6,198 bases of DNA from a virus. Its lineage: Duplodnaviria > Heunggongvirae > Uroviricota > Caudoviricetes. This document shows positions 2,780 through 6,198 of this stretch, piece by piece. The notes below the pieces were generated by a model, which saw only the letters and a list, made by a program, of their open reading frames with translations, made no database searches and was not told the origin of the DNA. The DNA is taken from the IMG/VR virus record IMGVR_UViG_2563366980_000008; one strand, written 5' to 3'. Positions within the stretch are counted from its first letter, which is position 1. The number at the start of each line of letters is the position of its first letter. A program made the translations under genes and the position numbers.

Positions 2780-4903
2780 ATGGCAGTACAGATTTCAGGC
2801 GTGCTGAAAGACGGTGCAGGAAAACCGATACAGAACTGCACCATTCAGCTCAAAGCAAAACGTAACAGCACCACGGTTGTGGTGAACACGGTGGCCTCAG
2901 AAAATCCGGATGAAGCCGGACGTTACAGCATGGATGTCGAGTATGGCCAGTACAGCGTTATCCTGCTGGTTGAAGGTTTTCCGCCTTCACATGCCGGGGC
3001 CATCACCGTGTATGAGGATTCTAAGCCGGGGACATTGAATGATTTTCTGGGCGCTGCAACAGAAGATGATGTTCGTCCGGAGGCACTGTATCGTTTTGAA
3101 AAGATGGTGGAAGAGGTGGCACGCAACGCTGAAGCCGCCTCTCAGAGCGCAGCGGCAGCAAAGAAATCAGAAACAGCAGCGGCATCGTCCAGGAATGCGG
3201 CGAAAACATCAGAGACGAATGCAGGTAACAGCGCGAAAGCGGCAGCTTCTTCAAAAACAGCCGCACAAAACGCAGCAACAGCGGCAGAACGTTCAGAGAC
3301 AAATGCCCGTGCGTCAGAAGAAGCCTCCGCAGACAGTGAAGAGGCTTCCCGCCGTAATGCAGAGTCAGCCGCTGAAAATGCCGGAGTCGCCACCACAAAA
3401 GCGCGGGAGGCCGCAGCAGACGCAACAAAGGCCGGGCAGAAAAAGGATGAGGCTCTGTCGGCAGCGACACGGGCTGAAAAGGCGGCAGACCGCGCAGAAG
3501 TCGCAGCGGAAGTGACTGCAGAGCCCTATGCGAATATAGTGCCGCCGCTGCCTGATGTGTGGATACCGTTTAACGATTCACTGGATATGATTGCGGGTTT
3601 TTCTCCGGGCTATAAAAAAATAGCTATTGGTGACGATGTGGTTCAGGTCGCCAGTGATAAACAGGTTAATTTCAGTCGCGCATCAACGGCAACATATATC
3701 AACAAATCTGGCGAACTGAAAACGGCGGAAATTAATGAGCCGCGATTTGAGTGTGATGGCCTGCTTATTGAGGGACAAAGAACGAACTACATGCTCAATT
3801 CGGAAAGTCCAGCCAGCTGGGGGAAGTCATCAAACATGGATGTGCCCGAAACCGGGACAGATAGTTTTGGTTTTACTTATGGAAAGTTTGTCTGCAACGA
3901 TTCTCTGGTTGGGCAAACTTCGGCTATTAATATGGCATCAATTGCTGCAACAAAGTCAGTTGATGTCTCAGGCGATAACAAGTACGTGACAACCTCATGC
4001 CGTTTTAAAACAGAACGACAGGTAAGGTTACGTATACGGTTTGATAAGTATGATGGTAGTGCAACAACTTTTCTTGGCGATGCGTACATTGATACGCAAA
4101 CGCTTGAAATTAATATGACAGGTGGGGCTGCCGGCAGAATTACGGCACGAGTCAGGAAGGATAAGACCACAGGCTGGATTTTTGCAGAGGCAACGATTCA
4201 GGCAATTGATGGTGAGTTAAAAATAGGCTCTCAGATACAGTATTCTCCTGAGCGGGGTGGGGCAACAGTATCTGGTGACTATATTTATCTTGCCACCCCA
4301 CAAGTAGAGAATGGGCCGTGTGTATCATCATTTATTATTTCAGGAGGCAGCGCAACGACAAGAGCCAGTGATTTGGTTAGTATCCCCACCAGAAATAATC
4401 TTTATAAGTTACCATTTACTTTTTTACTTGAGATTCATAAAAACTGGGATATTGCACCAAACGCCGCACCCCGCGTGTGGGATATAGCAGCAGCCAATAC
4501 CGGGCAATCAGCAATTGCAGCAATCAACAGAGGTAGTGGTAAGTTATATATGAGTCTGTCAAACCCTTCAGGCTTGTATGTTAATAGCGCAGCGACAGAT
4601 GTATTTGCAGAGAAAACCACATTTGGATGTATTGCAAAAGCTGATGGTCACTTTCATGTGGTGACAAATGGTAAAGCGGTTAATGAAGTTTATTGTGAAT
4701 ATAATGGTGTGACCGCTGATAAAAATATCCGATTTGGAGGGCAGACGAATACTGGAGAACGACATCTGTTTGGCCATATTCGCAATTTCCGCATATGGCA
4801 TAAAGAATTAAATGACAGGCAAGGTAATGACTCCAACTTATTGATAGTGTTTTATGTTCAGATAATGCCCGATGACTTTGTCATGCAGCTCCACCGATTT
4901 TGA
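2780..4903 (+). CDS. stf: Side tail fibre protein (lambda Stf-like N-terminus); 3' end altered by IS1 insertion. Native coding sequence runs to 4822, and the last 27 codons plus stop (4823-4903) are read from IS1
   Basis: N-terminus [38 protein letters not shown]...[16 protein letters not shown]...GFPPSHAG is near-identical to the lambda Stf N-terminal domain as recalled from memory. GGAG at 2771-2774 precedes ATG 2780 by 5 nt. The ORF track starts at in-frame GTG 2774, but ATG 2780 matches the lambda start MAV. The frame crosses the IS1 boundary at 4823 and stops inside IS1 at 4901-4903. Confidence 0.85.
3130..3520 (+). repeat. Ala/Ser/Thr-rich degenerate repeat region (fibre shaft) inside stf
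   Basis: Translation is low-complexity: [58 protein letters not shown]... with recurring SETNA motifs. Nucleotide near-repeats tcagagacgaatgc (3209-3222) and tcagagacaaatgc (3293-3306) lie 84 bp (28 codons) apart. The high-GC repetitive sequence generates spurious ORFs in other frames on both strands. Confidence 0.65.
4814..4822. repeat. 9-bp target site duplication (left copy) of IS1: gacaggcaa
   Basis: gacaggcaa lies immediately outside the IS1 end at 4823, and the identical 9-mer lies immediately outside the other end at 5591-5599. IS1 typically generates 8-9 bp duplications. Confidence 0.93.
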
Positions 4904-5341
4904 GAACGACAGCGACTTCCGTCCCAGCCGTGCCAGGTGCTGCCTCAGATTCAGGTTATGCCGCTCAATTCGCTGCGTATATCGCTTGCTGATTACGTGC
5001 AGCTTTCCCTTCAGGCGGGATTCATACAGCGGCCAGCCATCCGTCATCCATATCACCACGTCAAAGGGTGACAGCAGGCTCATAAGACGCCCCAGCGTCG
5101 CCATAGTGCGTTCACCGAATACGTGCGCAACAACCGTCTTCCGGAGCCTGTCATACGCGTAAAACAGCCAGCGCTGGCGCGATTTAGCCCCGACATAGCC
5201 CCACTGTTCGTCCATTTCAGCGCAGACAATCACATCACTGCCCGGCTGTATGCGCGAGGTTACCGACTGCGGCCTGAGTTTTTTAAGTGACGTAAAATCG
5301 TGTTGAGGCCAACGCCCATAATGCGGGCTGTTGCCCGGCAT
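4838..5341 (-). CDS. insB: IS1 InsB (InsB' frame; functional transposase is the InsAB' fusion made by -1 frameshifting)
   Basis: 167-aa [67 protein letters not shown]... matches IS1 InsB. It is in the -1 frame relative to insA and overlaps its 3' end. Confidence 0.95.
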
Positions 5342-5535
5342 CCAACGCCATTCATGGCCATATCAATGATTTTCTGGTACGTACCGGGTTGAGAAGCGGT
5401 GTAAGTGAACTGCAGTTGCCATGTTTTACGGCAGTGAGAGCAGAGATAGCGCTGATGTCCGGCGGTGCTTTTGCCGTTACGCACCACCCCGTCAGTAGCT
5501 GAACAGGAGGGACAGCTGATAGAAACAGAAGCCAC
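5260..5535 (-). CDS. insA: IS1 InsA (transposition inhibitor / N-terminal part of the InsAB' transposase)
   Basis: 91-aa ORF with a zinc-finger-like CxxC...CxxC N-terminus (CPSCSATDG...CSHCRK) and the C-terminus ...[11 protein letters not shown], matching IS1 InsA from memory. Confidence 0.95.
5278..5284 (-). other. IS1 programmed -1 ribosomal frameshift motif A6C (AAAAAAC) at the insA/insB' overlap
   Basis: On the - strand the insA codons read CAC TTA AAA AAC TCA (H-L-K-N-S); the + strand shows gtttttt at 5278-5284. This is the slippery heptamer known to produce InsAB' in IS1. Confidence 0.85.
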
Positions 5536-5590
5536 TGGAGCACCTCAAAAACACCATCATACACTAAATCAGTAAGTTGGCAGCATCACC

Positions 5591-5599
5591 GACAGGCAA
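5591..5599. repeat. 9-bp target site duplication (right copy) of IS1: gacaggcaa
   Basis: Identical to 4814-4822 and directly abutting the IS1 terminus at 5590. Confidence 0.93.
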
Positions 5600-5613
5600 T
5601 TAAAAGAGGTCGT

Positions 5614-5892
5614 ATGAAAGATTTAACTTTGAAGTTTCATGACAAACTGCAGTTTAAGGCCTTCCTGTCATCTCTTGACTGGGAGGAGGATGAAGACCTC
5701 CAGAATAAACTGTTAGTCGATGAAATTGGTTTCACCTACACAGAAACAGGGGTAACAGAAGAGGGAGAACCTGTCTGTGTCCGGAATGACGGTTATTTTG
5801 TCAACATTCGCATTCTTGATGACTTGTTTGATGTTTCTGTATTCTCTGATTATGTCGTGGAGCTGGAAACACCGCTTCGGGAATGGAGCTGA
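5614..5892 (+). CDS. Hypothetical acidic 92-aa protein, unrecognised; originally translationally coupled to the fibre gene
   Basis: ATG 5614 is preceded by AAGAGG (5603-5608) and the ORF ends at TGA 5890-5892. The protein is rich in D/E (WEEDEDLQNKLLVDEIG..., TEEGEP...), has no predicted transmembrane segment, and matches no family I can recognise by eye. With IS1 and one target-duplication copy removed, the fibre stop TGA (5615-5617) overlaps this ATG as ATGA. Confidence 0.6.
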   Translation: MKDLTLKFHDKLQFKAFLSSLDWEEDEDLQNKLLVDEIGFTYTETGVTEEGEPVCVRNDGYFVNIRILDDLFDVSVFSDYVVELETPLREWS

Positions 5893-5904
5893 AAGGAGGA
5901 AATA

Positions 5905-6198
5905 ATGGATATAAGCCCCTTACTTCATGCGCTTTGTGCTGTGGCTGCGCAGATACTGGTTGGTCTTTTTACCGGAAACTGGGCTTACGGAGCGATAGCC
6001 GGTTGTACGTTCTTCATTGCGCGTGAACATACCCAGGCAGAATATCGCTGGATTGAAATGTTCGGGCATGGCAAGCGAATGAATATGCCGTGGTGGGGCG
6101 GTTTTGATCCGCGAGCTTGGGATGTGGCAAGCCTGATGGATTTTGCTGTGCCGGTGGTGGCGTGTCTGCTGGTCTGGCTGTTGGTTAATCGTGGGTGA
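5905..6198 (+). CDS. Hypothetical small membrane protein (97 aa, about 2 predicted transmembrane segments), unrecognised
   Basis: Strong Shine-Dalgarno AGGAGG (5894-5899) precedes ATG 5905 and the stop TGA is at 6196-6198, the window edge. Hydrophobic stretches LLHALCAVAAQILVGLFTGNWAYGAIAGCTFFIA and LMDFAVPVVACLLVWLLV flank a Trp-rich loop (EYRWIEMFGHGKRMNMPWWGGFDPRAWD). The start is 12 bp after the previous stop, so the two genes are likely co-transcribed. Confidence 0.6.
   Translation: MDISPLLHALCAVAAQILVGLFTGNWAYGAIAGCTFFIAREHTQAEYRWIEMFGHGKRMNMPWWGGFDPRAWDVASLMDFAVPVVACLLVWLLVNRG

What the first reader, a model, noticed from the sequence alone, without database searches (positions are those of the whole stretch)
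5600..6198. Two unrecognised small genes directly downstream of the fibre gene: a candidate non-canonical fibre chaperone or a cargo (exclusion/defence) module
The slot immediately 3' of a lambdoid side-tail-fibre gene normally holds a tail-fibre-assembly (Tfa) chaperone of about 190 aa. Here it holds a 92-aa highly acidic protein, too short and unlike Tfa as I recall it, followed 12 bp later by a 97-aa predicted 2-transmembrane protein with a Trp-rich loop. Before the IS1 insertion the first gene overlapped the fibre stop as ATGA, implying translational coupling and therefore a functional link to the fibre. Alternatively the pair is a moron of the kind that often encodes superinfection exclusion or anti-phage defence at the tail-fibre end of prophages. 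Both proteins are unrecognised by eye, which makes this the most likely place for something undescribed. IS1 now separates them from the fibre operon and may silence them through polarity.
Basis: partly seen in the sequence, partly recalled or inferred. Interest (0 to 1): 0.62.

Follow-up and report, generated by a model that had tools for sequence, protein, structure and literature searches.

The report
Fibre helper gene plus membrane cargo gene
The two small genes after the phage tail-fibre gene are real, conserved and unstudied, but they are two separate things: the first always accompanies one type of tail-fibre tip and is most likely its folding helper, and the second is a very widespread small membrane protein that temperate phages carry as the last gene after their host-recognition genes.

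Summary
Gene A (5614..5892, 92 aa, pI 4.1) and gene B (5905..6198, 97 aa) exist. IS1 (768 bp, 4823..5590, 9-bp target duplication) sits five codons before the fibre stop. The uninterrupted allele (phage 21, 100% identical) has the predicted ATGA overlap.

Neither protein matches Pfam, NCBIfam, PADLOC or PDB. Both fold confidently (pLDDT 90 and 93) without informative structural neighbours.

The two genes are not one module.
- **Gene A** follows every fibre examined that carries this ~430-aa lectin-tipped C-terminal cassette. That holds in lambdoid, T1-like, T5-like, Dhillonvirus, Queuovirinae and rV5-like phages, almost always with a stop/start overlap.
- These fibres have neither a Tfa gene nor an intramolecular chaperone domain. 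The alternative cassette in rV5 and all eight distal fibre genes examined do have that domain.
- A is therefore most likely a new family of trans-acting fibre chaperone or cap.
- **Gene B** has a different GC content. It also follows tailspikes, P2-type fibres and J proteins in other temperate phages, has decayed in a virulent phage, and is a stand-alone chromosomal gene in Sphingomonadales.
- B is most likely a captured inner-membrane cargo gene, possibly for exclusion or lysogenic conversion. Its function is not shown.

The pair occurs in 1126 of 5426 complete E. coli genomes, including BL21(DE3).

The parts
2780..4822 (+). Side tail fibre gene, native part. It equals phage 21 CPT_21_22 residues 1-681. 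The ORF now runs on into IS1 and stops at 4903.
   Evidence: PF08400 N-terminal domain, NF048003 GTA_spike_fiber domain and Laminin_G_3. It is 100% identical over 681 aa to the phage 21 fibre. The annotated ATG start is taken from phage 21.
3551..4822 (+). Exchangeable C-terminal fibre cassette of about 430 aa (spike-fibre domain plus lectin-like LamG tip). Gene A always travels with it.
   Evidence: This region is 46-56% identical in fibres of lambdoid, T1-like, T5-like and Dhillonvirus phages whose N-termini differ. GC is 39-46%, as in gene A. The start coordinate is approximate.
4814..4822 (.). Left copy of the 9-bp target-site duplication, GACAGGCAA.
4823..5590 (-). IS1 element, 768 bp, with insA/insB on the minus strand.
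   Evidence: Exact insertion relative to phage 21, with imperfect inverted ends. insA/insB ORFs are. RefSeq annotates an IS1B family transposase in a related record. The IS1 own-promoter-like site at 5583-5556 is on the minus strand.
5591..5599 (.). Right copy of the target-site duplication.
5600..5617 (+). Orphaned last five codons (LKEVV) and stop of the fibre gene. The stretch contains gene A's Shine-Dalgarno GAGG (5606-5609) and the ATGA overlap (5614-5617).
   Evidence: Sequence read. Junction identical to phage 21.
5614..5892 (+). Gene A: 92-aa acidic alpha/beta protein (phrog_1361). It is the constant companion of the LamG-tipped fibre cassette and a candidate trans-acting fibre chaperone or cap.
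5894..5899 (+). AGGAGG ribosome-binding site of gene B.
   Evidence: Phage 21 annotates an RBS here.
5905..6198 (+). Gene B: 97-aa three-helix inner-membrane protein (phrog_1443) with the near-invariant motif REHTQAEYRWI..FG.GKR.NMPWWGGFD..AW. It is the last gene of the rightward late operon.

Best explanation
The region holds two unrelated functions placed side by side.

**Gene A** belongs to the fibre. It is part of a horizontally exchanged cassette made of the ~430-aa lectin-tipped C-terminal fibre module plus a 92-aa acidic protein. It is translated by coupling to the fibre stop codon (ATGA). Its most likely role is a dedicated trans-acting folding or trimerisation chaperone for this fibre tip, possibly staying bound as a cap or joint. 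It would do the job that a C-terminal intramolecular chaperone domain or a Tfa protein does for other fibres.

**Gene B** is cargo. It is a small inner-membrane protein of a family spread across Proteobacteria. Temperate phages of three morphotypes have captured it and keep it as the terminal gene behind their receptor-binding genes. Its near-invariant Trp-rich motif most likely faces the periplasm. Its most likely role is lysogen-benefiting envelope modification or superinfection exclusion.

**IS1** is a recent, strain-specific insertion. It removes the last five fibre residues and uncouples A from the fibre.

**Shown:** anatomy, synteny, independence of A and B, purifying selection, and lack of homology to known families.
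**Inferred:** chaperone activity, topology, and an exclusion or conversion role.
For: **Gene A**
- tblastn finds it in 145 phage records, in every listed row beside or overlapping an annotated tail or tail-fibre gene where the record carries annotation.
- In 21 records that appear in both tables, A starts 15-18 nt after the end of the matched fibre segment.
- Annotated loci show fibre followed by A in phage 21, HannyBb, IrisVonRoten, tonn, KarlBarth, KarlJaspers, JenP1, PhiR49_2, 2G7a, FFH1 and EmilHeitz.
- The small ORFs in FFH1 and EmilHeitz, missed by tblastn, match the A profile (E = 8e-14 and 3e-18).
- The fibres share only their C-terminal ~430-500 aa.
- In 78 of 80 IMG/VR loci the upstream ORF ends in the LamG motif with a 4-nt overlap.
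- Natural swap: rV5 gp41 and the EmilHeitz fibre are 89% identical over 909 aa and then diverge. rV5 has a Peptidase_S74 intramolecular chaperone and no gene A. EmilHeitz has the LamG module plus gene A. The next gene is 99.5% identical in both.
- All 8 distal fibre genes downstream of A carry their own Peptidase_S74 domain. The LamG-tipped fibres have none, and no Caudo_TAP gene follows them.
- A is retained under purifying selection in cassettes that lack a distal fibre (p21 against R49_2: pN 0.24, pS 0.89).
- A shares the cassette's low GC.

**Gene B**
- More than 577 protein clusters.
- It follows a P22-like tailspike with a 4-nt overlap, a tfa gene in phiHAP-1, a P2/HP1-type fibre in Aeromonas, and J plus a 72-aa ORF in Comamonas.
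- In E. coli lambdoids it is the last plus-strand gene before convergent sitDCBA, invertase or int genes.
- A frameshifted remnant lies behind a tailspike in the virulent phage HC6.
- It is a stand-alone gene among housekeeping genes in three Sphingomonadales contigs.
- GC is 51-52% against 39-46% for the cassette.
- Lys/Arg are enriched in the helix 1-2 turn and the C-terminal tail and absent from the N-terminus. This gives an N-out/C-in three-helix topology with the conserved motif in the periplasm.
Against: - No physical evidence links A to the fibre. No co-fold could be run, and no virion proteomics covering an A homologue was found; rV5, the only phage with proteomics checked, lacks A.
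- A identity does not track the lectin-domain allele (r = 0.27). If A is a chaperone, it must recognise a conserved feature rather than the variable tip.
- In most virulent phages A sits between a proximal and a distal fibre gene. That position also fits a structural joint.
- For B, no promoter or terminator of its own was found. It is often translationally coupled to a late gene, which is atypical for a prophage-expressed moron.
- No exclusion or defence family matches B.
- The loop of B carries 4.6 Lys/Arg on average, so the topology is not certain.
Confidence: 0.55

Rival explanations
1. Gene A is a structural joint or adaptor, comparable in role to T4 gp35/gp36. It would sit at the end of the proximal fibre and dock the conserved N-terminus of a distal fibre protein.
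For: In HannyBb, IrisVonRoten, tonn, KarlBarth, KarlJaspers, JenP1, FFH1 and many E. coli prophages the order is proximal fibre, then A, then a distal fibre. The distal fibre's first ~35 residues are conserved (M-A/V-T-x-T-x-I-P-x-D-I-T-x-L-K) while the rest varies. The IrisVonRoten record calls the A homologue 'tail fiber protein'. PMC11990801 models Gp24 attaching to a proximal fibre, naming it Gp22 in one place and Gp23 in another.
Against: A is kept intact and under purifying selection where there is no distal fibre gene: phage 21, 2G7a, PhiR49_2 and EmilHeitz. A identity and distal N-terminus identity do not track each other. A bound chaperone could serve both roles, so this rival overlaps with the best explanation.
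Confidence: 0.25
2. Gene B has a late, lytic-cycle function tied to receptor-binding proteins or to lysis. Examples would be a holin-like or lysis-timing protein, or a factor that limits re-adsorption of progeny. It would not be a lysogen-expressed cargo gene.
For: B overlaps the stop of the preceding late gene in JEP4, phiHAP-1, Aeromonas and several other loci. No own promoter was found. Its size, three helices, N-out/C-in topology and basic C-terminal tail resemble class I holins (the holin comparison rests on my own knowledge). Partial homologues occur in virulent jumbo Aeromonas phages.
Against: Phage 21 and the P22-like phages have separate complete lysis cassettes (own knowledge). The long, near-invariant polar and Trp-rich loop is unlike holins. 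Stand-alone chromosomal copies in Sphingomonadales argue against a lethal holin. B has decayed in the virulent phage HC6. No Pfam holin family matches.
Confidence: 0.15
3. A and B together form one two-gene exclusion or defence moron.
For: In E. coli lambdoid prophages close to this one, A and B are adjacent in 75 of the 76 IMG/VR loci with enough sequence after A to judge. The pair occurs in 1126 of 5426 complete E. coli genomes.
Against: Each gene has its own distribution. A occurs without B in T1-like, T5-like, Dhillonvirus, Queuovirinae and rV5-like virulent phages. B occurs without A in P22-like, P2-like and J-linked contexts and in non-phage chromosomal contexts. A distal fibre gene separates them in many prophages. 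There is a GC break between them. PADLOC gives no hit.
Confidence: 0.04
4. Gene A is an acidic DNA-mimic anti-restriction or anti-defence protein (Ocr/ArdA-like) that happens to lie near the fibre gene.
For: A is strongly acidic, with pI 4.1 and a net charge of about -14. The whole family has pI 4.05-4.6.
Confidence: 0.03

Closest known systems
Tail fibre assembly proteins Tfa (lambda Tfa, P2 gpG, Mu gpU; Pfam PF02413 Caudo_TAP)
   Same: A separate small protein is encoded directly 3' of a fibre gene and exchanged together with the fibre tip. TfaMu stays bound to the tip after assembly (as cited in PMC10579305).
Intramolecular chaperone domains of fibres and tailspikes (Peptidase_S74; K1F endosialidase, T5 pb1)
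   Same: The function occupies the same slot. In rV5-like phages, the cassette 'tip + IMC' and the cassette 'LamG tip + gene A' replace each other at the same point of an otherwise 89% identical fibre.
   Different: Gene A is a separate polypeptide and has no Peptidase_S74 match. It has no autoproteolytic Ser-Lys site that could be recognised.
Alteromonas phage fibre chaperone 'caps' (V22 gp27, A5 gp9; PMC10579305)
   Same: A small cognate chaperone gene lies just downstream of a fibre gene. The pair is shared between unrelated phage morphotypes. A possible second role is a transient cap.
   Different: Those chaperones are reported to resemble intramolecular chaperone domains in predicted structure. 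Gene A's fold does not. No sequence relation was seen.
Small membrane superinfection-exclusion or conversion proteins of temperate phages (T4 Imm/Sp, P22 SieA, HK97 gp15, D3 Iap, epsilon15 polymerase inhibitors); comparison from my own knowledge and PMC10883804
   Same: Gene B is a small inner-membrane protein carried by temperate phages at the end of the virion gene block. This is a position where lysogenic-conversion genes often sit.
   Different: There is no sequence or profile similarity to any described family. B has cellular homologues outside prophages. No phenotype is known.

Membership tests
Tfa / Caudo_TAP tail fibre assembly protein | Matches Pfam PF02413 (Caudo_TAP) | tested here: not met
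   hmmscan of gene A at E up to 1 gives only a chance LUD_dom hit. There is no NCBIfam hit.
Tfa / Caudo_TAP tail fibre assembly protein | Encoded immediately downstream of the fibre gene whose tip it serves | tested here: met
   The ATGA overlap is present in phage 21 and in 78 of 80 IMG/VR loci. The same position is held in 11 annotated phage loci.
Tfa / Caudo_TAP tail fibre assembly protein | Needed for folding or trimerisation of the fibre tip and binds it | not testable with these tools
   This needs co-expression or a multimer prediction. The structure tool folds single chains only.
Intramolecular chaperone (Peptidase_S74) | C-terminal Peptidase_S74 domain in the same polypeptide as the fibre | tested here: not met
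   The window fibre and the EmilHeitz fibre tip lack it, and gene A lacks it. rV5 gp41 and all 8 distal fibres have it.
Any solved chaperone or adaptor fold | Structural similarity of the gene A model to a solved structure | tested here: not met
Moron (independently acquired cargo gene in a prophage) | Composition and distribution differ from the flanking phage genes | tested here: met
   For gene B: GC is 51-52% against 39-46% upstream. It occurs behind unrelated receptor-binding genes and in non-phage chromosomes.
Moron (independently acquired cargo gene in a prophage) | Own promoter and terminator, with expression from the repressed prophage | tested here: inconclusive
   Consensus scans find no sigma-70-like promoter or intrinsic terminator around A and B in phage 21 or in the window. 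Such scans are weak evidence, and expression could not be tested.
Known superinfection-exclusion or defence families | Profile match to a described exclusion or defence protein | tested here: not met
   PADLOC gives 0 families for both proteins. Pfam and NCBIfam give none.
Known superinfection-exclusion or defence families | Blocks infection when expressed | not testable with these tools
   An experiment is needed.
Class I holin | Three transmembrane helices, N-out/C-in, basic C-terminal tail, and location in a lysis cassette | tested here: inconclusive
   The helix count and charge distribution fit. However, B is not in a lysis cassette in any E. coli locus seen. It has no Pfam holin match and has stand-alone chromosomal homologues.

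The most novel reading that the evidence does not exclude
Gene A founds a new, structurally unrelated class of trans-acting fibre chaperone or cap. This class would be obligatory for the LamG-tipped lateral fibres used by many coliphages, including BASEL model phages, and would be interchangeable in evolution with intramolecular chaperone domains. Gene B would be a new, widely conserved periplasm-facing inner-membrane factor that temperate phages of three morphotypes attach to their receptor-binding modules. It would alter envelope glycan display or block incoming genomes. About a third of complete E. coli genomes carry it.
Probability: 0.3. Interest if true: 0.7.

Novelty: new variant of a known kind. 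Interest (0 to 1): 0.5.

Why it matters
**Gene A.** Receptor-binding modules are the main target of phage host-range engineering. Transplanted fibres often fail because a cognate chaperone is left behind. If gene A is required for this very common lectin-tipped fibre cassette, it must be moved with the fibre. The cassette occurs in 205 phage records spanning lambdoid, T1-like, T5-like, Dhillonvirus, Queuovirinae and rV5-like phages. Gene A would also be a chaperone solution unrelated to Tfa and to intramolecular chaperone domains.

**Gene B.** It is an unstudied protein with an almost invariant 30-residue motif from alpha- to gamma-proteobacteria. It is present in 1903 of 5426 complete E. coli genomes, including BL21(DE3). 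That makes it an easily testable candidate for a new prophage-encoded envelope function.

Tried and rejected
1. **Profile search of gene A against 1.84 billion representatives.** It gave only 77 hits. The long multi-stretch hits are TPR or PKD repeat proteins, so they are composition artefacts and not relatives.
3. **Tai tail-assembly-inhibition systems (PMC11364771).** I considered these because they pair defence and counter-defence genes near tail genes. They lie upstream of the packaging module and target J or needle proteins, so they are not relevant here.
4. **DT57C LtfA/LtfB branched fibres (PMC10713586).** No small intervening protein is involved, and that fibre type is different.
5. 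**rV5 virion proteomics.** I checked this to see whether an A homologue is structural. rV5 itself carries the IMC cassette and has no gene A, so the data do not bear on the question.
6. **Mirror-tree style correlation of A with fibre segments.** The fibres are too mosaic for this to discriminate between partners.
7. **NC-SV prophage sRNA svsR (PMC12803456).** It maps to cI, not to this region.
8. **Literature searches.** Searches by protein accession and by descriptive terms found nothing on either protein.

Full report
**1. What is in the window**

The window is the right end of a lambdoid late operon.
- The C-terminal part of the J tail-tip protein runs to 2721.
- A side tail fibre gene starts at 2780. 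It has a PF08400 N-terminal domain, an Ala-rich stalk, an NF048003 'GTA head spike fibre' domain and a Laminin_G_3 / concanavalin-like tip.
- An IS1 element follows, then the two small genes of the finding.

Apart from IS1, the sequence matches phage 21 (OL657228). There are no mismatches in the 608 bases to the right of IS1 and 45 mismatches in the 4822 bases to its left.

**2.

- Gene A is 5614..5892 (92 aa; 22 acidic against 8 basic residues; pI 4.1).
- Gene B is 5905..6198 (97 aa; six Trp). A 12-nt spacer with AGGAGG separates them.
- IS1 is exactly 768 bp (4823..5590), flanked by a 9-bp duplication (GACAGGCAA), with insAB on the minus strand.
- Removing IS1 restores the phage 21 junction, in which the fibre stop and gene A's start overlap as ATGA. 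The same overlap is present in 78 of 80 IMG/VR loci that carry gene A.
- None of the loci inspected has this IS1, and no complete E. coli genome covers the junction. The insertion is therefore recent and strain-specific.
- IS1 replaces the last five fibre residues (LKEVV) with 26 IS1-encoded residues and breaks the coupling. Gene A keeps its GAGG ribosome-binding site.

Both genes are real coding genes. Non-synonymous differences are far rarer than synonymous ones: dN/dS is about 0.15-0.4 for A and 0.2 for B.

**3. Neither protein belongs to a described family**

- Pfam, NCBIfam and PADLOC give nothing. The PHROGs that contain them (1361 and 1443) have no function.
- Profile searches against all PDB sequences give nothing significant.
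- The phage 21 annotators used HHpred and still called them 'hypothetical' and 'putative membrane protein'.
- Full-text searches by accession and by description found no paper on either.
- Both fold with high confidence in AlphaFold2.
  - A has pLDDT 90 and is a small beta-alpha-alpha-beta4 domain.
  - B has pLDDT 93 and three helices.
- Foldseek against viral models finds only uncharacterised phage proteins for A.

**4. Gene A belongs to the fibre**

- tblastn finds A in 145 phage records, beside or overlapping an annotated tail or tail-fibre gene in every listed row where the record is annotated.
- These include virulent T1-like (tonn, KarlJaspers), T5-like (IrisVonRoten, L6jm), Dhillonvirus (KarlBarth) and Queuovirinae (JenP1, KurtStettler) phages.
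- The fibres upstream share only their C-terminal ~430-500 residues (46-56% identity). Their N-termini fit their own tails.
- The fibre tip is found in 205 records. In two groups where tblastn had not found A (T5-like FFH1 and the rV5-like myovirus EmilHeitz), the small ORF directly after the fibre matches the A profile (E = 8e-14 and 3e-18).

The clearest evidence is a natural swap.
- rV5 gp41 and the EmilHeitz fibre are 89% identical for 909 residues and then diverge.
- rV5 ends in a receptor-binding part with a Peptidase_S74 intramolecular chaperone and has no gene A.
- EmilHeitz ends in the lectin-tipped module followed by gene A.
- The next gene is 99.5% identical in both.

Where a further 'distal' fibre gene follows A, all eight examined carry their own Peptidase_S74 domain. 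The lectin-tipped fibres have neither such a domain nor a Tfa gene. Trimeric fibres generally need one or the other (established knowledge of Tfa, gp38/gp57A and intramolecular chaperones). Gene A is the only candidate in the cassette.

A also shares the cassette's low GC of 39-46%. It is retained under purifying selection in cassettes without any distal fibre: phage 21, 2G7a and PhiR49_2.

**5. What remains open for A**

- A's sequence does not track the allele of the last 160 fibre residues. Phage 21 against 2G7a shows A at 93% and the tip at 45%. Phage 21 against KarlJaspers shows A at 51% and the tip at 82%. If A is a chaperone, it recognises a conserved feature of the fold.
- In most virulent phages A lies between the proximal fibre and a distal fibre with a conserved ~35-residue N-terminus. 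A role as a bound joint cannot be excluded and may coexist with chaperoning.
- The BASEL paper models the IrisVonRoten distal fibre Gp24 on a proximal fibre. It calls that fibre Gp22 in a legend and Gp23 in the text, and it does not discuss the 92-aa Gp23.

**6. Gene B is something else**

- It has over 577 clusters in the protein collection, from Escherichia, Aeromonas, Comamonas, Leclercia and others. A genome scan adds Alphaproteobacteria and Desulfovibrio.
- The segment REHTQAEYRWI..FG.GKR.NMPWWGGFD..AW is almost invariant across all of them, while the helices vary.
- In phages it sits directly behind whatever receptor-binding gene ends the virion block:
  - a P22-like tailspike, with a 4-nt overlap;
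  - the tfa gene of Halomonas phiHAP-1;
  - a P2/HP1-type fibre in Aeromonas;
  - J plus a small ORF in Comamonas;
  - in E. coli lambdoids, either gene A or the distal fibre gene.
- In every E. coli locus seen, it is the last plus-strand gene before convergent genes.
- In the virulent phage HC6, a frameshifted remnant of B lies behind a tailspike. This suggests that it is dispensable outside lysogeny.
- In three Sphingomonadales contigs it stands alone among housekeeping genes in three different neighbourhoods. Pfam scans of upstream neighbours across 59 loci show a mix of tail proteins and housekeeping enzymes.
- B's GC (51-52%) differs from the cassette upstream.
- Lys/Arg counts suggest N-out/C-in with three membrane helices and the conserved motif at the periplasmic face: N-terminus 0.04, helix 1-2 turn 0.83, C-tail 2.0. 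This is an inference, because the loop itself carries 4.6 Lys/Arg balanced by 4.0 Asp/Glu.

**7. Mechanism for B**

The best reading is a captured cellular membrane protein kept by temperate phages as a terminal cargo gene. It would act at the periplasmic face of the inner membrane. That is where O-antigen and other undecaprenyl-linked glycans are processed and where incoming phage DNA crosses. The outcome would be lysogenic conversion or superinfection exclusion.

Evidence against this reading:
- No promoter of its own was found.
- It is frequently translationally coupled to late genes.

A late lytic role, including a holin-like one, is therefore kept as a rival.

**8. Are A and B a pair?**

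- In E. coli lambdoid prophages they usually lie together. They are adjacent in 75 of the 76 IMG/VR loci with enough sequence after A to judge.
- 1126 of 5426 complete genomes carry both at 80% coverage or more. This includes the Rac remnant of BL21(DE3).
- A further large set has fibre, divergent A, distal fibre, then B. The phage 21 / window arrangement looks like that arrangement minus the distal fibre gene.
- Beyond this group each gene goes its own way, so the adjacency reflects position and not joint function.

**9. Verdict**

- The chaperone idea for A is supported by comparative evidence but is not shown.
- The cargo idea fits B only.
- The 'single module' idea is rejected.
- Both families are undescribed. 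The roles proposed for them are of known kinds.

Noticed in passing
window 4823..5590 (with 4814..4822 and 5591..5599): The IS1 insertion has a perfect 9-bp target duplication. It is absent from the three IMG/VR loci checked directly and from 78 of the 80 IMG/VR loci, which keep the intact fibre-to-A junction. No complete E. coli genome covers 80% or more of the region. It therefore looks recent and specific to the source strain. The fibre ORF reads 26 codons into IS1 (to 4903).
   Followed up: yes
L003 3927..4958, L006 4789..6513, L007 4792..5466, L008 4770..5066, L013 4297..6039, L090 3755..4432, L091 3289..4344: The gene after A in many phages is a distal fibre. Its first ~35 residues are conserved (M-A/V-T-x-T-x-I-P-x-D-I-T-x-L-K) while the rest varies, and each carries its own Peptidase_S74 intramolecular chaperone. 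The conserved N-terminus looks like a docking peptide. KarlJaspers annotates this gene as a 'putative lateral tail fiber chaperone', which the domain content does not support.
   Followed up: partly
L097 (rV5 gp41/gp40) against L012 (EmilHeitz bas49_0026-0028): Within Vequintavirus, one fibre gene exists with two alternative C-terminal cassettes, 'tip + IMC' or 'LamG tip + gene A', between 89% and 99.5% identical flanks.
   Followed up: yes
L093 2965..3120 (Escherichia phage HC6, unannotated): A frameshifted remnant of gene B (…RRRANIPWWGGFDWRAWDLPSLLD) lies just after a tailspike gene in a virulent siphovirus. The same match is seen in ST1UNAM, ZCEC08, PBM-2 and PBM-3.
   Followed up: partly
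L096 4278..5726 (E. coli BL21(DE3), Rac prophage remnant): BL21(DE3) carries a truncated fibre fragment (245 aa), then gene A, gene B and a tail-fibre-assembly gene remnant, upstream of pinR. This is the position where K-12 has stfR-tfaR. A tfa remnant also follows B in strain MS1494 (L099 4815..4934). This suggests the whole block replaced an older stf-tfa pair by recombination inside tfa.
   Followed up: partly
L084, L086, L088 (Sphingomonadales contigs): Gene B homologues (44-59% identical, motif intact) are single genes among housekeeping genes in three different neighbourhoods, with no phage genes nearby. Only about 30 alphaproteobacterial species were hit by the exact-motif scan, so the gene appears to be accessory there too.
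   Followed up: partly
L009 6970..7521 and L094 2499..2996: A phrog_3108 protein of unknown function lies near gene B in both a Comamonas prophage and Aeromonas phage 62AhydR11PP. This is a possible second recurring neighbour of B.
   Followed up: no
L134 3001..3279 (IMG/VR contig): One prophage has a nonsense mutation at codon 11 of gene A (K11stop), with the fibre and gene B intact.
   Followed up: no
PMC11990801, Fig 12 legend against main text: The paper names the IrisVonRoten proximal fibre Gp22 in the legend and Gp23 in the text. bas32_0023 is the 92-aa gene A homologue, which is otherwise not discussed.
   Followed up: partly
L001 6700..10149 (phage 21); also L002, L089, L098, L099: The sitABCD iron/manganese transporter operon lies convergent to, and about 90 bp beyond, gene B in phage 21 and many E. 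coli prophages. The window ends at gene B's stop codon, just before this point.
   Followed up: no
L002 3440..5856 (Lambda_4C10): Another phage of this group has a different mobile element (three 'mobile element protein' genes) inserted between the fibre gene and gene A. The same junction has therefore been hit by insertion sequences more than once.
   Followed up: no
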